Shown: piece after piece, positions 1 to 38,383 of the stretch
How the letters are laid out: each line of letters starts with the position of its first letter
How positions within the stretch are numbered: the first letter of the stretch is position 1
Virus record (IMG/VR): IMGVR_UViG_3300019468_000034
Strand: one strand, 5' to 3'
DNA from: a virus
Length of the DNA: 38,383 bases
Program-made: the position numbers and the translations under genes
Notes under the pieces: model-generated
Database searches by the model: none
What the model was told of the DNA's origin: nothing
The model's input: the letters and a program-made list of their open reading frames with translations, nothing else

Positions 1-127
1 CGGAAAACCGTGCAATATAAGAAAGGAAAATAAAAATGGACACATGGACGGTTAATAAGCTAGAACAAATGGGCATAGACCCTAGCACAGCATGTAAGAA
101 ATGCGGCTATGACAACGGAATCGACAA
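1..127. repeat. 127-bp terminal redundancy, exact copy of 38257..38383; indicates circular assembly or a direct terminal repeat (unit length 38,256 bp)
   Basis: Bases 1..127 are identical to 38257..38383 by direct reading. Confidence 0.9.
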
Positions 128-200
128 CGGCTACGGGCAGGGACCGTGCGGACAAGCCCACTGCTGGCTAACTTTATACGACGATGACGAGGAGGTCTAA
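36..200 (+). CDS. small Cys-rich protein (54 aa, CxxC...C....C, zinc-ribbon-like), hypothetical; first gene downstream of cro across the wrap
   Basis: ATG at 36 preceded by AAAGGAAAA. ORF reads MDTWTVNKLEQMGIDPSTACKKCGYDNGIDNGYGQGPCGQAHCWLTLYDDDEEV. It is below the ORF-track length cutoff. Confidence 0.35.
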   Translation: MDTWTVNKLEQMGIDPSTACKKCGYDNGIDNGYGQGPCGQAHCWLTLYDDDEEV

Positions 201-225
201 TAATGTGAAAACAAAGAAGGACGTC

Positions 226-501
226 ATGTCTGTAAAAGACGTGGCGGAATACTACGGAGTATCTCAATCAGCCGTATATAGGCTAAGAGACGAAAATAAA
301 CTCCACCAATTACCGCTACCTGGCGTAAAGTTCGGCCGTCAAGAAGTAGAAGCCCTGGCCGGTATTGAACGGGAATACTCGGCGACAGGGTATAGGCGAC
401 TAAAAGAAGAAAACAGCCGCCTGGAAGCGGAGAACGAAAACCTTAAAAAGAAAATTAAAAAAATCACCAGCGAGCTACTGGTGATAAGCGGAGAGATTTA
501 G
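226..501 (+). CDS. MerR/AlpA-type helix-turn-helix DNA-binding protein (excisionase-like or regulator) with a C-terminal coiled coil; alternative starts at GTG 205 or ATG 184
   Basis: SVKDVAEYYGVSQSAVYRLRDEN is an HTH-like motif. AAGGA lies 5 nt upstream of ATG 226. GAGGAGG lies upstream of GTG 205. Confidence 0.55.
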   Translation: MSVKDVAEYYGVSQSAVYRLRDENKLHQLPLPGVKFGRQEVEALAGIEREYSATGYRRLKEENSRLEAENENLKKKIKKITSELLVISGEI

Positions 502-2225: not shown

Positions 2226-2437
2226 GTAAGTCATTTATCCACTGCCCGGTAGACGGATTAATTCCCGACACCGTTTGCCCTAACTGTAAATATTTTGAAG
2301 GCCATAGGACCTGGGCGTGTCTATATAGAGTTAGACACAAAATAAAAGAGGAGGACTCTAGGGCTAAACAACTAGTAGAAGATATGAGAAACCGAATAGA
2401 AAAAGTCAATAAAAAAAGACGCCACAAGGGCGTCTAA
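2222..2437 (+). CDS. small Cys-containing protein (HCP..CPNC), hypothetical
   Basis: ATG at 2222 within the longer ORF 2144..2437; no clear RBS. Confidence 0.3.
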   Translation: MSKSFIHCPVDGLIPDTVCPNCKYFEGHRTWACLYRVRHKIKEEDSRAKQLVEDMRNRIEKVNKKRRHKGV

Positions 2438-2510
2438 AGCAAAAAGCAGACCGGAGCCGGCAAGCTCCGTAAATGGTCTATATATATTATACATTATATA
2501 GCGAGAAAAT

Positions 2511-2530
2511 AACAGGGCTTCGGCCCTGTT
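2511..2530. terminator. perfect hairpin AACAGGGC-TTCG-GCCCTGTT in the intergenic region upstream of the Rep gene; terminator or origin-associated structure
   Basis: 8-bp perfect stem with a TTCG tetraloop. No strong T-run on the + strand. ATTTT follows on the - strand. Confidence 0.3.
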
Positions 2531-2586
2531 ATCGCTAGATTAAGTCTATTAAATATACGACCAAATAAAAACCAAGAGGTCGAAAT

Positions 2587-3393
2587 ATGTATGTACAAAA
2601 AACGGTAAAAGCAGGACCCGTAATTGAAATCTGCAAATACCACACATCGAGATATAACACGCCGACGATGCCGAGATCCCCAAACAGTAAAAACACATCG
2701 GCCGAGCAATGGAAAGTAAACGAGAAAAATTCAATTCAAAATCTCTATTACCTGATTCTCGAAAATTTCAAAGAGGAAGACATTCGAATCGACCTTACAT
2801 ACAAGGAACCGGAGCCTGGAAAGGAGGAAGCCAAAAATAGGCTAGACAATTTTCTCCGTAAGCTCCGTAGGCTATATCACCGGCTAGGCGAACAATTAAA
2901 ATGGATTGCCACCACAGAATGTAAGGGACACCGAATTCATCATCACCTGCTGATAAATAACATTGGGCTGTCACGAGCCGATTACAAAAAGCTATGGCCA
3001 CACGGAGAAATCCCCTATAAGGCCTTTCGGTTTTATGACGGAAAGCCGGATGATGCAAGAAGGGTTGCCGAATACTTTGTGAAAGAAACAAGAGAAACGT
3101 TTTGCGAAGAAGACGCGATACAAAAATCAAGATACCGGGCAAGTAGGAATCTAAAAAAGCCGGAAATAAAAAAAGAAGTGATAAAAAGTAAGACCTGGAA
3201 AGAGCCGAAAGCTCCGAAAGGATACTACATACAAAAACCGGTGCAGTACGGATACACCGCCTTTGGCTTTCCGTACATGTTCTACCGGATGATAAGGACG
3301 GGTGACGATGACGATCAGATATCTAATCAGAAAAAACCGAGCAGAATATGCTGCCATCGAAGAAGGACGGGAAAATACCCTTTGGGTACATGA
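2587..3393 (+). CDS. candidate rolling-circle replication initiator (HUH endonuclease, Rep-like)
   Basis: Motif-1-like IDLTYK, HUH-like RIHHHLLIN and YxxK-like EYFVKE occur in the expected order. AGAGGT RBS. The C-terminal 40 aa look out of frame. Confidence 0.5.
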   Translation: MYVQKTVKAGPVIEICKYHTSRYNTPTMPRSPNSKNTSAEQWKVNEKNSIQNLYYLILENFKEEDIRIDLTYKEPEPGKEEAKNRLDNFLRKLRRLYHRLGEQLKWIATTECKGHRIHHHLLINNIGLSRADYKKLWPHGEIPYKAFRFYDGKPDDARRVAEYFVKETRETFCEEDAIQKSRYRASRNLKKPEIKKEVIKSKTWKEPKAPKGYYIQKPVQYGYTAFGFPYMFYRMIRTGDDDDQISNQKKPSRICCHRRRTGKYPLGT

Positions 3394-3583
3394 CGATAAA
3401 CGCTGCTTTAAGCCTGACGAGAAAATCCATTTCGTCGAAATGATAAATGGCAAACGAACCCATAAAGGCTGCTGGGCAAACATTGAACGAGTCTATGAAG
3501 GTAGATTAATCAAATACAGGGTGGTAAAACACGATGAACTTACTAAAGACAAAAAGAGTGAAATTAAAAGGAAAGGCCGCTAA
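3302..3583 (+). CDS. hypothetical protein overlapping the 3' end of the Rep ORF in the +1 frame
   Basis: AAGGA upstream of ATG 3302; the protein-like sequence continues. Confidence 0.35.
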   Translation: MTMTIRYLIRKNRAEYAAIEEGRENTLWVHDDKRCFKPDEKIHFVEMINGKRTHKGCWANIERVYEGRLIKYRVVKHDELTKDKKSEIKRKGR

Positions 3584-3833
3584 AGAATTTTACAATGCCA
3601 TATATGAGCGTGACGGCGGTACATGTATTTGGTGCGGAGCTCCCATTGAATACGGCGTAAAACATCATCACGAGCCTTGCGGAATTTACAAATCAGACGA
3701 AATAGAAAAAGCGGTTATGCTTTGCCCTAGCTGCCATCATAGACGGCACTTCCAAGATGCGGCCGAAGGGGAAGCGGTATGCCGCGAATACCTTCAAAAC
3801 CTATACGGAGAAAAGGGGGCAAAGAGAGAATGA
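3534..3833 (+). CDS. HNH endonuclease
   Basis: CIWCG....HHHEP......K.....LCPSCHHRRH is a C-x2-C...HH...C-x2-C-H HNH signature. Confidence 0.8.
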   Translation: MNLLKTKRVKLKGKAAKEFYNAIYERDGGTCIWCGAPIEYGVKHHHEPCGIYKSDEIEKAVMLCPSCHHRRHFQDAAEGEAVCREYLQNLYGEKGAKRE

Positions 3834-4153
3834 AGTTCATAGATTTTTTCGCCGGTATCGGGGGCTTTCATTCAGGCTTAGAGAAAGCGGGCATGGAATG
3901 TATCGGTTGGTGTGAGTTCGATAAATTCGCTCAAAAAAGTTATAGGGCTATGTATGATACGGAGAGGTTGTGGTTTGCAGATGATATCAGAAAAGTCAGA
4001 GGTTGGGACGTGCCGAAAGCCGACTTATGGACATTCGGATTCCCTTGCCAAGACGTTAGTATCGCCGGGAAGCAAAAAGGAATTAAACGAGGAACAAGGT
4101 CCGGACTTTTTTATGAAAAACATAAAGAAATGGAGTGTATAAAATGGCGATGA
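3830..4153 (+). pseudogene. DNA cytosine-5 methyltransferase N-terminal fragment (motifs I and IV only); truncated remnant
   Basis: MKFIDFFAGIGGFHSGLEKAGMECIGWCEFDKFA...DIRKV...DLWTFGFPCQDVSIAGKQKG..RGTRSGLFYE, then a stop. No ENV motif or target-recognition domain in any downstream frame. Confidence 0.7.
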
Positions 4154-4344
4154 AAGGAAACGCAGATATGACACCTCGCGCAGCTTTAAAGAAGGTCATC
4201 AATATTGAACTTAGTGCGGACGAACTGAATATATTGCTGAACGCAATATGCTGGCGAGATAGAGAAATGATGCCGCGTACGACGCAGATAGGACGGCTGT
4301 ATCGTAAATTGTACAAAGCACGAAAGCTAGCACGAGGGGAGTAA
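4144..4344 (+). CDS. hypothetical protein
   Basis: GGAG 9 nt upstream of ATG 4144. Confidence 0.35.
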   Translation: MAMKGNADMTPRAALKKVINIELSADELNILLNAICWRDREMMPRTTQIGRLYRKLYKARKLARGE

Positions 4345-4350
4345 ATAATC

Positions 4351-4656
4351 ATGTGTACATTGAAGAAATATAGAGAATACGACCCTAATACAATTGAAGC
4401 CGTTCAATTTACGGGAGAAAACGGGGACGAGATACTAACCCTTTTAAACGTTAGGGGCGGTGTTTGGACTACACTTAAGCGAGAATTTGATGAAGATACA
4501 GGCGAAGAGTTTCATAAGCGTGTACTAACACTGGAAATTATTGATGGTAGCAAGAGATGTAGGGCGTTTCAAGGCGACTATGTTCTTAAAACTGTACATG
4601 GCGAGATATACACACTTGACGAAGAGTCGTTTTTAACTAGTTTTGAAGAGATTTAA
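4351..4656 (+). CDS. hypothetical protein
   Basis: GAGGGGAG RBS. Confidence 0.5.
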   Translation: MCTLKKYREYDPNTIEAVQFTGENGDEILTLLNVRGGVWTTLKREFDEDTGEEFHKRVLTLEIIDGSKRCRAFQGDYVLKTVHGEIYTLDEESFLTSFEEI

Positions 4657-29700: not shown

Positions 29701-29810
29701 TCCAAGAACTTATTACCACAACGATATTTGATAAGCGCTACAAGACACACGAAGAACGGGTACGCCAAGACAAGAAAAAGGCTAATGAACAAAAAAAGAA
29801 AGGAAAATAA
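20757..29810 (+). CDS. giant virion protein (3,017 aa) in the gp16 position; internally duplicated module plus an HExxH zincin motif; candidate polyvalent ejected effector
   Basis: AAAGGAG RBS; uninterrupted 9,054-nt ORF. Two QRAWHG...HGWGxY modules at aa 1085 and 1364. HEAAH at aa 1636. Confidence 0.7.
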   Translation: MAEYRFDNFKIDANNPTGETPSSDVLNLNNDNLGSQEGMAQANAELQEKYNSINQQVASGQIKQKPQMNYQHQESNWTPQQEENDGIGTKIYNGLLAIGNWEVNSAMDVYRNLFNPNARAMNQAKTYADTLGLSAQFLMDNPDAYNTAEEIYNKKMAARFLGGVKFSTAALDDMYPELAEIRQKDPVSAAMALQDYEDVKNTRSIFEVVKDAFNSGSDMVKLSDAQMRAYNGESIDSVRPDVDKLTDELRAYQEPNKYERTLYDTIQQLTIMGTQAVRATKRAAQGAALGMATSAAAAGGAAATVIGAEAAPIILLAGATTGAAYGMRVGMFEQFEQQSAAARYWELMNNRKGEYSRNHALVDSTVTGVVNGAIELGLMEVGYKPITKAWGGQAAKSILNNAAARMAIIDAGKESIAKLSAQAAMKQFGRSTAAELAEEGAQQASEDLMDNAEYYLYKKGAPHTTTEIIGNAVDAMVQAVPAVVGMGAMGAITHGVGNYRSMRAIAAIKNEDWKQEYRRTVEQQTIEALMANKAQNKTAQKNPEVYKNVVQEQARLAGVQNMYVDAQELSKTDKGVDVLNDMVNRGIITGEQVDKSISTGADIVIPTGTFAQLADESVDTDTLMRATTMAKNGVHRAALEEKAKRVEAIREELANLAQNKKDVLSKELMEEHFSNADDITRTAAESVIYKNPYDLNKSYKEALADARKEYEDALGFDAYWNYKPQGVGIMYTDEESRQTGRGIRVSNNDYWYQDMYKKLGRKATREEMLDIAYEDQMKELQTLAPEAADEFAQNANSLKAKYESLQGLKDKFEELAKSDYAVKQSLTKEGYEVYNEVVNRLQDGSEKSKLAANENAFIYARMAESWARIRNEYGDTAYTAKDFMAEHAVNIGYENIKNTYTQAMFDVRRVGVNNLEDFLKRVKARRSAGEVANKIMFTGKFGVIYTEAQVVHAMTEHNGHILTTEQMEDIEKHIGIMHHVAISRKKELTNFNGVPVLASINGEKGDYYVVLEFNKDGKIWFKTGMPVSTDSAKSIIKQKIEEGSAYRLTHNTQGRTGLNTSSIRIDTVAEKLKSVNNKEKDTFDQRAWHGSGMDFNEFNLEKALTGAGDMVHGWGIYTAKNKKTAQAYKKHAQSKGLPSYLYEVDIPKDENLLVEEKRYQEQTPKIQEKLARTISDLPDSQQKIFWEKLLRNEMRRLPEETEALSDLDKAKDKVKQLEVASKGLENTDKPKLKEKIAIKHLKALGYIDKQIKDRNFMQTEKEKEEKVLAAVKKEAEKAKASIQERKDSILEAAIQNPKDALKRSVGTGKEIYRYLSASLDSMEEASQQLNKNGIEGISYYDSKDGDCVVVFSDKAVNIIDQYKQRAWHGTPYDFDTFDLSGIGSGEGNQAHGWGLYFAQNREVSEAYKEILGDKGSTVELNGEVWTVNESGDWETTGKTAKYGEAIGYALDALEEHGTKDAAINILQKDLKEGRFRGAYIAEAQKAVNILRQGEAKGHKGGRLLEAEIPDTDVLLDEQKLFKEQPEKVKNALSKLISNTGEGQLSRRAFKNATGKSIYEMLSNLYGDDKKASLKLNEFGVKGITYKGTQDERCYVVFDDKAIEIRNKYDQEIKASYNSATGAIHLFDGADQSSFVHEAAHMYLTEMSKMAVDEAAPKGLMEDWNTIQNWAAYKPEDIKDYEGTAREKEFKSYAKAIEDARKSGDVIAIRAAEERWMQERFARGFERYIAEGKAPTQALQSAFRKFKSWLISIYRDLKKLGKEPPEDVKRVMDRMIATDDEIEAWAKAKELNAWDKKGFSGDLTGSEGDMIKRWAEDAKEKAKERVLKELMRQEENQWRTDLENSLEKERIDYEKHLVDENPIYGQELVYRETGEQFKEDYLRTIGYDSKESFESAIEKAGGPLEERSKAFMENRRKEYEEMMPTSEDFKNAADAELASTNAQMRLSQLEAYAIKRKVNGYVAEAVKAMRELDALDGKSEEEITAGIKEILGVDDEAAKKGRQVALVLAKNEEIQKLKERLKDAKEKDKEYRALAREELASAKAALKEAMRGLNTARDITAGSYTKTLQVAREELSKMTVAEATIWRHWEIKAKQEGNNADKLMAAGAFEEAATAKGNSLKYYCMSRAAKDNQEYVRTKLEGSTGRVDMQQEAMDGIKGMVKRISRRENPVRLDPNSRYMIQHLAYITGITEKDGIKPLNEKGESVGINWEKVYGDLNPDYAMDKETAPNPDKIVAPWLRILAESKERKDYNEMQMDQFQDMVEAMNVLYKASRRDYEATTIKDRNGKVISQEEAALKLVQAIGVDNSFNPLQDSNNQTDAKSKAKSLAKDALLYLTKAETIFDRFGGDWMQLVYEPINQGANKELTMRQEACKTFSKIYNMYSLEEWQAMRSDRVFTIGLTTNFTREQLICMALNWGNKEGRKRVLATINKSAKNEADVIDEYTMQSVLESSLTEKDWNFIEAVWEQLDSYWAERNKVQENLYGQGLGKVQALPFNINGRQIKGGYYPIVYDPKLSIRASDLAADDIVKQALSGSSTFGIGMGSTKSRVSEVKGQQLALRLDVWPQAVTEAIHHIAMREAATDVYKLITHPAVQQAVQQKYGMETYNIIRQWSKDVWKTDVQKADIINRTLEQMRKNSAFAVMAMRTGTAILNVLNVFPMMHQIGKINTLKAITGFGLGFYKGTDTYARNRQFVFDKSPMMRDRMNTIDRDMQQDMKLEVGQDTSLIRERATHAKEKFNRFGYWFITETDLMFSMALWKHGYDESMRKQIEAGMTDVKQMEQNAISDADTNVRAVFGSGQVKDQVAMQRKNTLVGQLTPFYSYSSTVLNALIKAGYRVKDHGDYMALINATLYWVVLQTLAETVYRSAVAGELDDPDKMLRRLGITTVRNVDQGIPVVRDALEGVMNHFLLGSDSNNSPLAITAIDELVKAAQAAGNEKKDFTDVGRSLSRVGNRTWKFSDTLSDGFWNLVRFSLVDTDRSVQELITTTIFDKRYKTHEERVRQDKKKANEQKKKGK

Positions 29811-33236: not shown

Positions 33237-33518
33237 ATGAATAAGAACGAAATTATGAACATGCTCGCAAAAGAAGCCGCACAAATTGCAAAAGAACAAG
33301 CAACGGCAGCCCTTAGCTCATTGTCAGCAAACGACCTTCGGCCGATTGTAGAAGAACAATTAAAGACCATTACAGGCCCTCTACAACAGGAAGCGGAAAC
33401 CACAAGCTCCGTATGGGTCAAGATCAGAAACCGTTTCTACATTCGCATTATTAACAACGCGATCGACAACATCATCAAAACAATCCAGGACGGCCTGGAC
33501 GGACTTAGTAAGAAATAA
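33237..33518 (+). CDS. hypothetical protein, last gene of the late operon
   Basis: AAAGGAGAAACC RBS at ATG 33237. Confidence 0.45.
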   Translation: MNKNEIMNMLAKEAAQIAKEQATAALSSLSANDLRPIVEEQLKTITGPLQQEAETTSSVWVKIRNRFYIRIINNAIDNIIKTIQDGLDGLSKK

Positions 33519-33625
33519 GTTGTTGCATAATTTACAACAACTTATTTAAGCAAAACAACTTTTATTAAACTAAAAACAAAAGTTGTTTAACAAATTGGCA
33601 TTCCGTAAACAACTCAATAAGAACC

Positions 33626-33682
33626 AAAAAGACGGATTCTTGGAACTTAACCTACGTTAAGACCCGGAATCCGTCTTTTTTT
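33626..33682. terminator. strong bidirectional rho-independent terminator (14-bp perfect stem with a nested inner hairpin)
   Basis: AAAAAGACGGATTC ... GAATCCGTCTTTTTTT flanked by an A-run and a T-run. Inner CTTAAC-CTAC-GTTAAG. Confidence 0.6.
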
Positions 33683-33934
33683 GATACTTAGTCATATTAA
33701 AAAAGGAAAAAAAACGTCATAAAAACCAGGGGAAATACAGCAAAACAGCTACATTTCCCACAGAAAAGAGTAAATCTCCAAAATAAGCCCTATTTCAAGC
33801 CACAGATAGATTTATAAAACGACGCATAAAAGAACATGAATAAGAACATAAAACGCCTTACAAGCGATTCTGTAAAGCCGTTTTCGAAGAAAAAATAAAT
33901 AAAAAAATACATTAATAAATTTTAGAGAAAATAT

Positions 33935-33963
33935 TTGACAATGCACGCAATGCGTGATATACT
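33935..33963 (+). promoter_or_regulatory. near-consensus sigma-70-type promoter with a palindrome in the spacer
   Basis: -35 TTGACA (33935..33940), 17-nt spacer, TGn plus -10 TATACT (33958..33963). The spacer contains CACGCA-a-TGCGTG. Confidence 0.6.
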
Positions 33964-34014
33964 TTACTCAAGATAAAGATATGAATTGCCTATCAGCGAA
34001 AGGAGAATGAAAAA

Positions 34015-34278
34015 ATGGAAGAGAGAAAATATCAAGTATCGGTAGAATATCCGTTCGACAACGCAGACGCATGGGATTTTGCAACGAAGGAAGAGGCCTT
34101 AAAGGAGTTCGACGAACTCAAGAAGGAAGTGAACGACAGGGACGTAGCCGCAATGCTCAAGATTACAGACCGGGAGAACAATTACAAGGTTGTTGAGTTT
34201 TACGTCAACAGACGAGAAATGTTCAGTATCGACGAATTGAACGACTATGAGAACACTCTCATAGCGTGGGATGAATAA
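34015..34278 (+). CDS. hypothetical acidic protein (moron cassette gene 1)
   Basis: AAAGGAGAA RBS; 87 aa. Confidence 0.5.
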   Translation: MEERKYQVSVEYPFDNADAWDFATKEEALKEFDELKKEVNDRDVAAMLKITDRENNYKVVEFYVNRREMFSIDELNDYENTLIAWDE

Positions 34279-34645
34279 AATAAAAGCGGCACGAGAAGCC
34301 GCAGGACTTACGCAAGCCGAAGTCTTTGAAGTGCTCCGTATACCCATGCGGACACTTCAAGACTGGGAGAACGGCAGAAGAACGCCGCCTGAATGGGCCG
34401 AACGGTTAATAACAGAAAAACTAAGCTTAATAGCTAGAAGGACGAAAGGGGATATAAGAATGGCAGAATACATGGTAGTATACGAAGATGAAGACGGGAT
34501 TAGCGAAGTCCCGTTCGATGATTACGAAGAAGCTGGGCAATACTTTGATGACCTCGAAGATGATTGCACATGGGCAGAGCTTAGAAGATATAACGACATG
34601 ACCGATTACGATGTTATCGGAGCAATCGGACGAAGAGGAAGATAA
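34271..34645 (+). CDS. HTH (XRE/antitoxin-like) domain protein with an acidic C-terminal region (moron cassette gene 2)
   Basis: AAREAAGLTQAEVFEVLRIPMRTLQDWENGRRTP is an HTH-like motif. Confidence 0.5.
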   Translation: MNKIKAAREAAGLTQAEVFEVLRIPMRTLQDWENGRRTPPEWAERLITEKLSLIARRTKGDIRMAEYMVVYEDEDGISEVPFDDYEEAGQYFDDLEDDCTWAELRRYNDMTDYDVIGAIGRRGR

Positions 34646-34650
34646 ACAAC

Positions 34651-34686
34651 AAAGACCCCTCACAACGAGGGGCCTTTGTATTTTCG
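34651..34686 (+). terminator. rho-independent terminator after the moron cassette
   Basis: AAAGACCCCTC-ACAAC-GAGGGGCCTTT (one mismatch) followed by GTATTTTCG. Confidence 0.55.
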
Positions 34687-34898
34687 ACAAAAATTCGTCA
34701 AAAAACCATGGTGAATAATGGTAAATATGGTGAAAAATAAAATAATGCGAAACTTGGCCAAAGCGGTGATTAACGCAGTTTAATAAATATGGGAAAATAG
34801 AAAGGCATAAAAAAGCCTTCATATAGGAATGGCAACAACACATGCAATTGTGATAAATACCCATTTATTAAACATTCGACAATAAAATCGTCAAAAAC
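34683..34898. other. candidate attP region: two near-identical 23/24-bp direct repeats flanking about 170 bp with further short repeats, abutting the integrase 3' end
   Basis: TTCGACAAAAATTCGTCAAAAAA (34683..34705) versus TTCGACAATAAAATCGTCAAAAAC (34875..34898). ATGGTGAA occurs twice at 34708..34734. Confidence 0.35.
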
Positions 34899-35960
34899 TC
34901 ATTTAAAAATATTTGCGACCCTGTCCGCTGCCCGAAGTCGCATCTCGTCCGTAAAATGAATGTATGTGTTAATAACGGTATTTACGTCATCGCCTAAAAG
35001 ACTTGCAACGGTTTTTACGTCAAGGCCGTTCGCTAAAAGCGTAGTCGCGTATGTGTGTCTCATATCGTGAATCGATTTTCCACTTACAACCGTCCATATA
35101 ACATTATTAACCCGGCTGGAATGATTACCTTTAGCAGGAAACAATACAAGGCCGTCGCATTGCTTTTTATAGTCCTTTAATATCTTCAACAACACCGGCG
35201 GGACGGGAAGTATACGATAACTGTTTTTAGTCTTTAGTTGATTAAACCCAAACTTATTTTGCCCGGAACGAACAAACTGCTTATTAATATTAATGGTAGA
35301 CACTGAAAAATCAATATCATCCCATGTTAAGCCTAGAATTTCACTATAGCGACAGCCGGTATATCTGGCAACAGAAACCAAAGCGTAGTAATACGAAGAA
35401 TAGCCTTTTAGAAAATCCATCAACCTGTCCAGATCATCCTCGGTAAACACCCTAATTTTTCTCCGTTCGCTTTTCGCCTTTTCAACCAAATCGCACGGGT
35501 TAAGGGCAATAGCACCATAGGGTCTTTTTGCGTAATTAAAAATAGTCTTTAGGCGTTGGAGATATAAATTTCTTGTTCCGGGAGAAAGGCAACCGGAGTT
35601 AAAAACCGAAACGATTTGAGAATACGAAATGTTGCGGATAGGAAGCGGTGCTAATTCCTGGAAGAATCGCAAAGAGTGCTCGTAAGTAAGACGGGTATTA
35701 TAGGTGAGATTCGACTTCTCGCGAAGGTATAAAGAATAGAAGTCACCAAGCGTGGCATCGCGGAGATCCTCGGAGGTGAAAACGGAAACTGTTTCTTTTA
35801 ACTCGGCGATAATATCCTGGCCATATTCTTTAGCCGCTCTTTGCGTTTTAAAGCCTTGCTTTGACTTTTGACGCCACTTACGACCGTCTTTATAACTAAC
35901 AATAACCTGATAGCCGTTATCCTTTTTTCGTATTGTAATATTTGCCTGCATTTTTAACAC
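34899..35960 (-). CDS. int: tyrosine site-specific integrase
   Basis: HDMRHTYAT and the C-terminal catalytic Tyr region VINTYIHF. N-terminal arm-binding-like domain. 353 aa. Confidence 0.9.
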   Translation of the reverse strand: MLKMQANITIRKKDNGYQVIVSYKDGRKWRQKSKQGFKTQRAAKEYGQDIIAELKETVSVFTSEDLRDATLGDFYSLYLREKSNLTYNTRLTYEHSLRFFQELAPLPIRNISYSQIVSVFNSGCLSPGTRNLYLQRLKTIFNYAKRPYGAIALNPCDLVEKAKSERRKIRVFTEDDLDRLMDFLKGYSSYYYALVSVARYTGCRYSEILGLTWDDIDFSVSTININKQFVRSGQNKFGFNQLKTKNSYRILPVPPVLLKILKDYKKQCDGLVLFPAKGNHSSRVNNVIWTVVSGKSIHDMRHTYATTLLANGLDVKTVASLLGDDVNTVINTYIHFTDEMRLRAADRVANIFK

Positions 35961-36036
35961 CGTATAACAAAAAAAGAGTCACCGATAGGTAACCCCTGAA
36001 AATAAAAATAGGAGCGATACCTTTCGATACCGCTCC

Positions 36037-36063
36037 AGTAAAAAGAGTCGAACTCTTTTTACT
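36037..36063 (-). terminator. perfect 12-bp hairpin (AGTAAAAAGAGT-CGA-ACTCTTTTTACT) between the upstream membrane-protein gene and int
   Basis: Perfect inverted repeat with A- and T-runs in the arms. Confidence 0.45.
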
Positions 36064-36115
36064 CTGTAGCAATATCTTAACTTACGCTAAACAATTTGTC
36101 AAAATAAACGATTGA

Positions 36116-36478
36116 TTAAAATCCGTAGTTAATATATCTCACAATTTTATTAATACGACTTGCAATATCAGAAATTTCATAATTAATAGATTGAATATCT
36201 GTATTAATAGACTGGATATCCATAGAATTTTTATTAACATCACTAACAAGCCCTTGCAACGAAGTAGAATTAGACAACACATCAGCCTCATTGGAAGAGA
36301 TTCGGCTATCCAAGTCATCAATGCGACGGTCTATTTCGTTTATATCGCTAGAAAAACGAAGTGACGAAACCGTATCAGATAGCGAGTTAATCTGTTGCGA
36401 AAGTTGATAAATATAGAACCCTTGAATAGCAATAATAACAAACATAACAATAAATAAGGCCATAATTTTCTTGCTCAT
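36116..36478 (-). CDS. membrane-anchored coiled-coil protein, hypothetical (lysogen orientation)
   Basis: AGGTG lies 6 nt upstream of ATG (MSKKIMALFIVMFVIIAIQ...). N-terminal TM then heptad-like repeats. Confidence 0.5.
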   Translation of the reverse strand: MSKKIMALFIVMFVIIAIQGFYIYQLSQQINSLSDTVSSLRFSSDINEIDRRIDDLDSRISSNEADVLSNSTSLQGLVSDVNKNSMDIQSINTDIQSINYEISDIASRINKIVRYINYGF

Positions 36479-36540
36479 GAGCACCACCTATAGCTATTCA
36501 TCCTCACCAAAGCATCCGTCACTGTTTAATACAATGGATT

Positions 36541-37044
36541 TTATTTATAAAGAGAGCGCTGGAAATCAGCATTTAATTTTTTATTAAAGTACATGTGATA
36601 ACACTCAAAAAAGAAAAGTTCGCCTACCATTGTACGGAGGGAAAATTTAGCTATTGCAGGGGAATAAACAACTTTTGCGGATTTATCAGCATCCATATCA
36701 AACAAAAAAGCACCGTTTTCGTCGTAAGCGCCACCTTGACGTCTTAATAACTGCATGGTTTGGGAGTCAAAATCATAATAGAAAATACAGGAATACTTAA
36801 CCAACACAGGACCATCACTGTCGTAAAGTTCCGTCCAATAATCGCCAATAATTGTATAAAACGGAGGATCATAACGGACGGGGCATATAGAGGCGGTATC
36901 AATATAATATGTGGCTCGCATAGTAGAATGGAATTTTCTGTAGCGACCACCGGAAGCAGCCCCATCGGAAAGAAACGAAGCCGAAACAGGAAGGATACAA
37001 ATAAAGAACGCAATAAAAAGTAAGAATGTGCGCTTGATTAACAT
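36541..37044 (-). CDS. secreted protein with a Sec signal peptide, hypothetical (lysogen orientation)
   Basis: MLIKRTFLLFIAFFICILPVSA|SF is a signal-peptide-like N-terminus. A GTG start at 37053 is an alternative. Confidence 0.5.
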   Translation of the reverse strand: MLIKRTFLLFIAFFICILPVSASFLSDGAASGGRYRKFHSTMRATYYIDTASICPVRYDPPFYTIIGDYWTELYDSDGPVLVKYSCIFYYDFDSQTMQLLRRQGGAYDENGAFLFDMDADKSAKVVYSPAIAKFSLRTMVGELFFFECYHMYFNKKLNADFQRSLYK

Positions 37045-38253: not shown

Positions 38254-38269
38254 GCACGGAAAACCGTGC
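38254..38269. promoter_or_regulatory. fourth operator-like dyad GCACGGAAAACCGTGC immediately after the cro stop codon (continues into window position 1)
   Basis: Perfect 6-bp arms; the same motif as 38001..38014. Confidence 0.45.
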
Positions 38270-38383
38270 AATATAAGAAAGGAAAATAAAAATGGACACA
38301 TGGACGGTTAATAAGCTAGAACAAATGGGCATAGACCCTAGCACAGCATGTAAGAAATGCGGCTATGACAACGGAATCGACAA
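38257..38383. repeat. second copy of the 127-bp terminal redundancy (equals 1..127)
   Basis: Exact identity to the window start. Confidence 0.9.

What the first reader, a model, noticed from the sequence alone, without database searches (positions are those of the whole stretch)
34683..34898. A candidate attP carries duplicated 23-bp arm-type repeats abutting the integrase stop codon
TTCGACAAAAATTCGTCAAAAAA (34683..34705) and TTCGACAATAAAATCGTCAAAAAC (34875..34898) are near-identical direct repeats about 190 bp apart. Each is itself a tandem of TCG(A/T)CAAAAA half-sites, and the second ends one base before the int stop codon. The interval also contains ATGGTGAA twice and a short AAGGC/GCCTT hairpin. 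Direct-repeat arm sites next to a tyrosine integrase are the typical architecture of attP. The core (crossover) sequence cannot be identified without the host attB.
Basis: partly seen in the sequence, partly recalled or inferred. Interest (0 to 1): 0.55.

Follow-up and report, generated by a model that had tools for sequence, protein, structure and literature searches.

The report
Phage attachment site with mapped crossover

Summary
The observation and its interpretation both hold.

- **Repeats:** They sit at the stated coordinates. The half-site TCGWCAAWAA occurs 5 times in the window against 0.57 expected, and 4 of the 5 lie in 34684-34897.
- **Phage form:** The window is a circular phage assembly with a 127-bp terminal overlap.
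- **Junctions:** The same phage occurs integrated in metagenome contigs and in one NCBI genome assembly, between host jag and mnmE near oriC. Both junctions fall between the two repeat blocks.
- **Core:** The junctions define a 14-bp common core, window 34816-34829 (CCTTCATATAGGAA).
- **Empty attB:** An unoccupied site with exactly this 14-bp identity exists in Megasphaera micronuciformis F0359.
- **Integrase:** Int has an N-terminal Arm-DNA-bind_4 domain.
- **Conservation:** In relatives with 38-96% identical Int, a TTGACGA doublet follows the int stop codon wherever downstream sequence is available. A second doublet lies about 200 nt further on in every attP-form contig. Core and spacers diverge.
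- **Excisionase:** Three tandem ATGGTRAA repeats next to the distal doublet co-vary with a candidate excisionase (window 184-501).

The layout matches phage mv4 attP: 215 bp with two pairs of adjacent 11-bp direct arm sites at the ends. This is a new member of a known kind. Arm binding itself is inferred, not shown.

The parts
34649..34679 (.). Strong terminator hairpin ending the rightward late/HTH operon. It is called terminator-like on both strands and marks the outer edge of the P arm.
   Evidence: terminator-like on both strands. (-18.4 kcal/mol, z -5.9).
34683..34704 (-). P-arm (int-distal) pair of arm-type half-sites, TTCGACAAAAA and TTCGTCAAAAA, 11 bp apart. On the int strand they read TTTTTGACGAATTTTTGTCGAA.
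   Evidence: Recovered about 199-208 nt after the int stop in relatives (four by the pattern scan, the rest read directly). In the aligned set it is 78-96% identical while spacers are about 31-40%, and the block TTTGACGAAT.TTTG.CG is invariant in all 8 aligned attP sites.
34708..34738 (.). Three tandem ATGGTRAA repeats with a 9-10 bp period, directly next to the P-arm doublet. Candidate excisionase (RDF) binding sites.
   Evidence: TRF, 10-bp x3.2. They are 87-100% conserved in phages whose candidate Xis is 92-96% identical although Int is only 62-64% identical. They are 61% conserved where Xis is 45-59% identical. The function is inferred.
34801..34820 (-). Weak terminator-like hairpin on the int strand (GAAGGC-loop-GCCTTT plus a T-rich tail), 79-98 nt after the int stop. 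It straddles the edge of the core and is split by integration.
   Evidence: (-8.1 kcal/mol, z -2.4 in attP; no hairpin in the attL form, L004).
34816..34829 (.). Common core (crossover region), CCTTCATATAGGAA, which reads TTCCTATATGAAGG on the int strand. It contains the 12-bp near-palindrome TTCaTA|TAgGAA (34818-34829). The 6-8 bp overlap region is predicted to be centred on 34823|34824.
   Evidence: Identity from the int side ends at 34816 (A1). Identity from the HTH side ends at 34829 (A2). The empty attB shares exactly these 14 bp. The core occurs as a direct repeat flanking the prophage on two contigs.
34875..34897 (-). P'-arm (int-proximal) pair of arm-type half-sites, TTCGACAATAA and ATCGTCAAAAA, 12 bp apart. 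On the int strand they read TTTTTGACGATTTTATTGTCGAA.
   Evidence: A TTGACGA doublet lies within about 15 nt of the int stop in every relative of 38-96% Int identity that has downstream sequence (7-13 nt in the 13 caught by the pattern scan; L024's was read). None was found in relatives at 32% identity or below.
34899..35951 (-). Tyrosine integrase, 350 aa from the ATG at 35951, with an N-terminal arm-binding domain.
   Evidence: Phage_integrase 9.3e-21; Arm-DNA-bind_4 9.1e-08, 32 bits against a cut-off of 22.3. (phrog_1 integrase). (best solved relative is Tn1549 Int). (R201, H295, R298, Y330 motifs).
184..501 (+). Candidate excisionase / recombination directionality factor, 105 aa.
   Evidence: phrog_7735 excisionase, 2.9e-17. 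(Pfam HTH_17, 4e-07).

Best explanation
Window 34683-34898 is the attP site of a temperate phage of Megasphaera. The phage genome is 38,256 bp and circular, and it is assembled here in its excised form.

**What is shown.**
- The phage integrates by recombination within a 14-bp sequence, CCTTCATATAGGAA (34816-34829).
- That sequence is also present in the 54-bp spacer between host jag (khpB) and mnmE (trmE), next to the rpmH-rnpA-yidC-jag/dnaA origin region.
- In the prophage, int lies 92 bp upstream of mnmE and reads in the same direction. The mnmE ribosome-binding site, GAAGGAG, is rebuilt from core plus host DNA.

**What is inferred about the mechanism.**
- Int is a heterobivalent tyrosine recombinase.
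- Its C-terminal core-binding and catalytic domains act on the imperfect dyad TTCaTA|TAgGAA. They probably exchange strands across a 6-8 bp overlap centred on 34823|34824.
- Its N-terminal Arm-DNA-bind_4 domain binds the four direct TTTTGACGA-type half-sites. These are arranged as one adjacent pair at each end of attP: the P pair at about -140..-120 and the P' pair at about +52..+74.
- Bridging arm and core sites folds the roughly 216-bp attP into an intasome that captures the naked attB.
- The three tandem ATGGTRAA repeats beside the P pair are probably binding sites for the excisionase candidate (window 184-501), which would bend the P arm and direct excision.
For: **Junction mapping.**
- Six int-side contigs read P'-core-mnmE. 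Further examples appear.
- Five HTH-side contigs read P-core-jag.
- Two contigs carry both junctions, 37.7 and 38.5 kb apart, with the 14-bp core as a direct repeat.
- Several circular or phage-form contigs have the intact attP. The window itself has a 127-bp terminal overlap.
- An empty attB in M. micronuciformis F0359 shares exactly 14 bp with attP, with mismatches immediately on both sides.

**Arm sites.**
- The half-sites are clustered far beyond chance.
- Int has an arm-binding domain above the Pfam cut-off.
- In relatives with 38-96% identical Int, both doublets keep their positions: P' just after the stop, P about 200 nt after it. Spacers fall to about 31-40% identity, and three lineages have different cores.
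- The N-terminal 60 residues of Int are much better conserved than the core-binding domain: 88% against 61-63% in one lineage and 62% against 28-30% in another. This parallels conserved arms with divergent cores.
- The neighbouring gene on the P side differs among relatives while the doublet stays.

**Architecture.** It equals the experimentally defined mv4 attP: 215 bp, with two pairs of adjacent 11-bp arm sites in direct repeat at the two ends (bioRxiv 10.1101/2023.11.06.565760).

**Excisionase candidate and repeat co-variation.**
Against: - There is no binding or recombination experiment, so arm binding, the overlap position and the Xis sites are inferences from sequence and comparison.
- The core dyad is imperfect (10 of 12 positions), and the cleavage points are not mapped.
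- The half-sites contain TTGAC, a -35-like hexamer, so a promoter role for the P' pair cannot be strictly excluded.
- One contig (L099) joins the P arm to a different flank at a core with two mismatches. The site is therefore either not absolutely specific or that contig is chimeric.
- The P arm is nearly identical among the closest relatives, so much of its conservation there reflects recent shared ancestry. The footprint argument rests mainly on the more distant L022, L030 and L024 lineages.
Confidence: 0.87

Rival explanations
1. The region is attP, but the repeated TTGACGA doublets are transcription signals rather than integrase arm sites. They could be -35 boxes or operators. For example, the P' pair could act as a promoter that drives the host mnmE operon once the prophage has cut it off from its upstream DNA.
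For: - Each half-site contains TTGAC.
- A similar single copy at 36090-36104 is the -35 of a promoter-like site upstream of int.
- After integration the P' arm lies directly upstream of mnmE, and the weak hairpin behind the core is removed.
Against: - The promoter scan calls no promoter at either doublet.
- No conserved -10 element follows the doublets in relatives.
- The P doublet would fire straight into a strong terminator hairpin.
- The same doublet is kept at both ends of attP in lineages that integrate at other sites.
- The copy upstream of int is not conserved in relatives.
Confidence: 0.05
2. The region is attP, but the doublets are bound by an accessory protein (the excisionase or a host architectural protein). 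Int arm sites would then be other sequences, for example the ATGGTRAA repeats.
For: - No binding data exist.
- RDF sites are typically direct repeats about one helical turn apart (186 Apl preprint 10.1101/784983, abstract listed).
- The ATGGTRAA array is also a tandem direct repeat.
Against: - The doublets occur on both arms, as expected for Int arm sites. The ATGGTRAA array occurs only on the P arm, as Xis sites do in lambda.
- The doublets stay nearly constant while the candidate Xis drops to 45-59% identity. The ATGGTRAA array changes along with Xis.
- Doublet conservation parallels conservation of the Int N-terminal domain.
- The layout matches the tested mv4 arm pairs.
Confidence: 0.07
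3. The repeats are a chance feature of an A+T-rich intergenic spacer and have no role. Recombination would need only the core.
For: The spacer is A+T-rich, and short A-rich words recur in it.
Against: - 0 of 100 shuffles reach the observed count.
- The blocks are invariant across lineages whose spacers have diverged to near-random identity.
- Int carries a dedicated arm-binding domain.
Confidence: 0.01

Closest known systems
Lactobacillus phage mv4 Int/attP (heterobivalent tyrosine recombinase of the Tn916 group)
   Same: - mv4 attP was experimentally redefined as 215 bp, with two pairs of adjacent 11-bp arm sites, all in direct repeat. One pair sits at the end of each arm, around a COC' core with a 7-bp overlap.
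- Here the site is 216 bp, with two adjacent pairs of about 11-bp direct half-sites at the two ends and the core in between.
- The best solved relative of this Int is Tn1549 Int, which belongs to the same group.
   Different: - The arm sequence differs: TTTTGACGA here against an AACTAG-containing site in mv4.
- mv4 targets the 3' end of a tRNA-Ser gene, whereas this phage targets the jag-mnmE spacer.
- No close sequence relationship was established.
- Nothing here has been tested biochemically.
Bacteriophage lambda attP (POP')
   Same: - Int is heterobivalent, with an N-terminal arm-binding domain.
- Arm-type sites lie on both arms, far from a short core that is shared with attB.
- int lies next to the P' arm.
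- Tandem Xis sites lie on the P arm next to an arm site.
- The overall size is about 240 bp.
   Different: - Lambda has five arm sites (2 + 3) interspersed with IHF and Fis sites. Here there are 2 + 2 adjacent half-sites, and no host-factor sites could be identified.
- The Pfam arm-domain family differs (Arm-DNA-bind_4).
- The identity with attB is 14 bp here. From memory, lambda's is 15 bp.
Tn916/Tn1549 integrases
   Same: Tn1549 Int is the best match among solved structures (6EMY, E 8.8e-12). The domain order is the same.
   Different: - Similarity is weak, with E-values of about 1e-11 over partial alignments.
- Those are conjugative transposon integrases with relaxed target choice and heterologous overlap regions.
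- This phage uses a defined attB with a 14-bp identity.
- Int has Asp (D321) where Tn1549 Int has His.

Membership tests
attP of a heterobivalent (lambda-type) tyrosine integrase | An adjacent tyrosine recombinase with the catalytic R...H-x-x-R...Y signature | tested here: met
   Pfam Phage_integrase, 9.3e-21. R201, H295, R298 and Y330 motifs are present. The second His/Trp position is Asp.
attP of a heterobivalent (lambda-type) tyrosine integrase | A separate N-terminal arm-DNA-binding domain in Int | tested here: met
   Pfam Arm-DNA-bind_4 on residues 17-57, 32 bits against a cut-off of 22.3.
attP of a heterobivalent (lambda-type) tyrosine integrase | A short core identical in attP and attB, present as a direct repeat at both prophage ends | tested here: met
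   The 14-bp core is found in attP, attL, attR and an empty attB.
attP of a heterobivalent (lambda-type) tyrosine integrase | Arm-type repeats on both arms, unrelated in sequence to the core | tested here: met
   Four TCGWCAAWAA half-sites lie at -140..-120 and +52..+74. They are conserved in relatives.
attP of a heterobivalent (lambda-type) tyrosine integrase | Int binds the arm sites and needs them for recombination | not testable with these tools
   This needs EMSA or footprinting and attP deletion assays.
attP of a heterobivalent (lambda-type) tyrosine integrase | Inverted core-type sites flanking a 6-8 bp overlap region | tested here: inconclusive
   - 34818-34829 is self-complementary at 10 of 12 positions (read).
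- The L099 junction first departs from attP at 34822. If it is a real integration event, one exchange point lies at or left of 34822.
- The junction of the 62-64% Int lineage, mapped onto the window by alignment, suggests an exchange point at or right of 34818.
- Both constraints fit the predicted overlap, but the cleavage sites are not mapped.
attP of a heterobivalent (lambda-type) tyrosine integrase | A phage-encoded excisionase with sites on one arm | tested here: inconclusive
   A candidate gene is at 184-501 (phrog_7735, 2.9e-17). The ATGGTRAA x3 array co-varies with it. No binding data exist.
mv4/Tn916-group attP layout | Two pairs of adjacent ~11-bp arm sites in direct repeat at the two ends of a ~215-bp attP | tested here: met
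   The pairs are at 34683-34704 (11-bp spacing) and 34875-34897 (12-bp spacing). All are in one orientation and the span is 216 bp, against mv4 as described.
mv4/Tn916-group attP layout | The Tn916-group structural hallmark: extra beta-strands before the catalytic Lys | not tested
   Only sequence similarity to Tn1549 Int was obtained. No structure was predicted.

The most novel reading that the evidence does not exclude
The arm sites and the Int arm-binding domain may form a fixed scaffold shared by a whole clade of phage integrases from human-associated metagenomes, while core specificity is swapped.

At least three core and attB specificities were seen: jag-mnmE, upstream of a lysR gene, and an A+T-rich third site.

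Phages whose Int is only 62-64% identical carry a 90-100% identical P arm and a 92-96% identical Xis candidate, with the mosaic joint lying at the crossover core itself.

If the P-arm/Xis module and the Int/P'-arm module are truly exchanged at the core, this would be a natural example of modular reprogramming of integration specificity. It would also be a ready-made set of orthogonal integrases that share accessory sites.
Probability: 0.3. Interest if true: 0.4.

Novelty: new member of a known kind. Interest (0 to 1): 0.22.

Why it matters
- **Complete site set.** It gives a sequence-level definition of attP, attB, attL and attR for an uncultured temperate phage of Megasphaera micronuciformis, a bacterium of the class Negativicutes found in human-associated samples. 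No isolated phage in the phage collection searched here has an integrase more than 31% identical.
- **Practical value.** Prophage boundaries for this phage group can now be called exactly. The Int/attP/attB set could serve as an integration tool for Veillonellaceae.
- **Family resource.** The family offers several natural core specificities on a common arm scaffold.
- **Conceptual value.** It adds nothing new to how heterobivalent integrases are understood to work.

Tried and rejected
- **Near-identical phage records.** A megablast of 33500-37000 against the phage collection found nothing.
- **Int start codon.** A look-up of Int from the GTG start found nothing. The ATG start at 35951 is the form on record.
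- **tRNA or known RNA target.** There is no tRNA or tmRNA in the window and no Rfam family. The phage does not use a tRNA-type attP.
- **Third repeat copy as an arm site.** The copy upstream of int (36090-36104) coincides with the -35 of a promoter-like site. It is absent from most relatives, so it was rejected as part of attP.
- **Promoter reading of the doublets.** The scan did not support it.
- **L099 alternative site.** I tried to fetch the int-side junction by looking up the replication protein. That contig was not returned, so the secondary site stays unresolved.
- **Scans with a P'-arm word.** These added only one attP and one attL (mnmE) and no new site.
- **Literature.** A search for Megasphaera prophage attP found nothing relevant.

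Full report
**1. Observation**

Each is a tandem of two half-sites. TRF reports an 11-bp x2 array at 34683-34704, and in the second block the half-sites are 12 bp apart.

The degenerate half-site TCGWCAAWAA occurs 5 times on both strands of the 38-kb window against 0.57 +/- 0.77 expected. None of 100 shuffles reached 5, and four of the five copies lie inside 34684-34897.

The int ORF with its stop codon is 34899-35960 on the minus strand. The second block therefore abuts the stop codon.

ATGGTGAA is present twice, with a third degenerate copy between the two. TRF reports a 10-bp x3.2 array at 34708-34738. The AAGGC/GCCTT hairpin is present at 34802-34819.

**2. Surroundings**

- Int (350 aa from the ATG at 35951) has a Phage_integrase catalytic domain and an N-terminal Arm-DNA-bind_4 domain above the Pfam cut-off.
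- To the left, a rightward operon ends with an HTH gene (34271-34645) and a strong hairpin that is terminator-like on both strands (34649-34679).
- To the right of int lie a lysogeny module with a cI-like repressor and an M78 peptidase, then a divergent cro-like gene.
- The window ends overlap by 127 bp, so it is a circular assembly of 38,256 bp, that is, the excised form.
- There is no tRNA and no Rfam family.

**3. Prophage junctions**

Exact-protein look-ups of Int and of the HTH protein returned the same phage in two states.

- In circular or phage-form contigs of about 38 kb, the int-HTH spacer is identical to the window.
- In longer contigs and in one NCBI genome assembly (GCA_046946615.1), int is followed 92 bp later by host mnmE-mnmG-rsmG. 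The HTH gene is followed by host jag-yidC-(yidD)-rnpA-rpmH and dnaA-dnaN. The phage therefore sits between jag and mnmE, next to the origin region.

Alignment of six int-side junctions with attP shows identity from int down to window 34816 and divergence beyond it (A1). Alignment of five HTH-side junctions shows identity up to 34829 and divergence beyond it (A2). The overlap of the two is the common core, 34816-34829: CCTTCATATAGGAA, or TTCCTATATGAAGG on the int strand.

Two contigs carry both junctions, with the core as a direct repeat 37.7 and 38.5 kb apart. A scan of the metagenome contig collection with a P'-arm word found one more attP and one more mnmE junction and nothing else.

**4. 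Empty attB**

A pattern spanning the predicted unoccupied site hit one genome in the species-representative collection, Megasphaera micronuciformis F0359.

There, jag (2367-3086) and mnmE (3141-4520) are 54 bp apart. The spacer reads ...CCCGGTGCATTGCACCGGGTTCTT-TTCCTATATGAAGG-AGAAGTTCTATG.

attP and attB share exactly 14 bp, with mismatches immediately on both sides. The core overlaps the T-rich tail of a hairpin behind jag and the mnmE Shine-Dalgarno sequence (GAAGGAG), which integration rebuilds.

**5. Are the repeats arm-type sites?**

Relative to the dyad centre 34823|34824, the distal pair lies at -140..-120 and the int-proximal pair at +52..+74. All four half-sites have one orientation.

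Relatives of Int were collected from viral contigs. I examined those at 38-96% identity whose contigs extend beyond int.

| Finding | Detail |
|---|---|
| Proximal doublet | A TTGACGA doublet follows the int stop in every examined relative that has downstream sequence. It starts 7-13 nt after the stop in the 13 caught by the pattern scan. L024's more degenerate copy was read directly. |
| Distal doublet | Every contig in the attP form has a second doublet about 200 nt after the stop (199-208 nt in the four caught by the scan). In L012, L013 and L018 its second half-site is more degenerate and was read directly. |
| Distant relatives | Relatives at 32% identity or below have none. |
| Invariant blocks | In an alignment of eight attP sites the doublets are the invariant blocks. 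|
| Footprint in distant lineages | In L022 and L030 the doublets are 78-83% identical while spacers are 31-34% and the core 43%. |
| Protein parallel | Int residues 1-60 are 87-88% identical where the rest is 55-63%. In another lineage they are 62% identical where the core-binding domain is 28-30%. |
| Neighbouring gene | The gene beyond the P arm differs among relatives while the doublet stays. |

Three lineages have different cores at the same relative position.

- The 62-64% lineage recombines at ...TTCTCTTATGAA and sits upstream of a lysR gene.
- The 48-50% lineage recombines in ...ATCAATATATTATA.

Constant arms with a constant arm domain, alongside variable cores with variable core-binding domains, is the pattern expected of a heterobivalent integrase. 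Binding itself is not shown.

**6. Other elements**

- **ATGGTRAA array.** The three repeats lie directly beside the P pair, where lambda has its three Xis sites. A 105-aa protein at 184-501 matches an excisionase PHROG (2.9e-17) and Pfam HTH_17. It is 92-96% identical in the phages that share the array although their Int is only 62-64% identical. It is 45-59% identical in the lineage where the array differs. This supports, but does not prove, an RDF-site assignment.
- **Weak hairpin.** On the int strand the hairpin is weak (-8.1 kcal/mol, z -2.4) and is followed by a T-rich run. Integration splits it, and the attL form has no such fold. It may end int transcripts only in the phage form. That is speculative.
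- **Core dyad.** The core contains a 12-bp near-palindrome, TTCaTA|TAgGAA (34818-34829). The L099 junction and the shorter identity in the 62-64% lineage both suggest one exchange point between 34818 and 34822. This is consistent with a 6-8 bp overlap centred on 34823|34824. It is inferred, not mapped.

**7. Rivals**

- **Promoter or operator role for the doublets.** No promoter is called at either doublet. No -10 element is conserved. The P pair faces a strong terminator.
- **Doublets as Xis or host-factor sites.** This fits poorly. They lie on both arms and stay constant while Xis diverges.
- **Chance.** This is excluded.
- **Third copy.** The copy at 36090-36104 is the -35 of a promoter-like site upstream of int and is not conserved.

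**8. Comparison with known systems**

The layout equals that established experimentally for phage mv4. Its attP is 215 bp, with two pairs of adjacent 11-bp arm sites in direct repeat at the two ends around a COC' core (bioRxiv 10.1101/2023.11.06.565760). It also follows the general lambda plan (PMC4880445).

The best solved relative of Int is Tn1549 Int (6EMY, E 8.8e-12), from the group in which mv4 Int is placed.

The arm sequence, the target (jag-mnmE spacer) and the host are different. No phage in the phage record collection has an Int more than 31% identical or similar DNA.

**9. Verdict**

This is a new member of a well-understood kind, useful for annotation and possibly as a tool, but not surprising. 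Interest is low.

Noticed in passing
window 1-127 and 38257-38383: The two ends of the window are identical over 127 bp. It is therefore a circular assembly of a 38,256-bp genome, that is, the excised or replicating form of the phage.
   Followed up: yes
L099 10546-10570 (ENA ERZ27319893 k141_173672): The same P arm is joined at the core to a different flank: CCTTCAaATAGaAATaaC, followed by a 195-aa ORF, a XerC-like gene, lexA and leuBDCA. This is a possible secondary attachment site with two mismatches in the core, or a chimeric contig. The int-side junction of that contig could not be retrieved.
   Followed up: partly
L003/L004/L092 (ENA ERZ28635091 scaffold_93): One 128-kb contig has an mnmE junction at about 51,179 and an attP-type joint at 89,606-89,619, and it ends one phage length later. 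This is either a tandem double lysogen or an assembly running through the circular form. The joint carries a G-to-A change one base left of the core.
   Followed up: partly
window 35974-36102, minus strand: A promoter-like site (TTGACA-17-TAAGAT, 36102 to 36074) lies between the gene upstream of int and the int ATG. It is followed by three hairpins (36063-36037, 36036-36011, 35997-35974). Two of them are terminator-like and together fold at -30.8 kcal/mol, z -6.2. This could be a regulatory leader controlling int expression. There is no Rfam match.
   Followed up: partly
L013, L016, L018, L112, L114 compared with window 34683-34829 and 184-501: Phages whose Int is only 62-64% identical, with a different core and a different attB (upstream of a lysR gene), share a 90-100% identical P arm and a 92-96% identical Xis candidate. 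The mosaic joint coincides with the crossover core.
   Followed up: partly
window 34938-34940 (Int residue D321): Int and most of its relatives have Asp in the LLGD motif, at the position where Tn1549 Int has His (MGH). One 40% relative, L026, has LLGH. This is the second His/Trp position of the tyrosine recombinase signature.
   Followed up: no
L101 3090-3145 (M. micronuciformis F0359) and the attL loci L001, L004, L005: In the empty site a hairpin with a T-rich tail lies between jag and the mnmE ribosome-binding site. After integration mnmE-mnmG-rsmG lie 92 bp behind int, reading in the same direction, and 38 kb away from jag. Their expression in lysogens may therefore depend on transcription coming out of the prophage.
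   Followed up: no
window 20757-29810 (+): There is a single 3017-aa ORF in the late region. Versions of it in related contigs carry MuF_C, PBECR3 or AcrIF11-type ADP-ribosyltransferase Pfam hits, which suggests a variable polyvalent protein.
   Followed up: no
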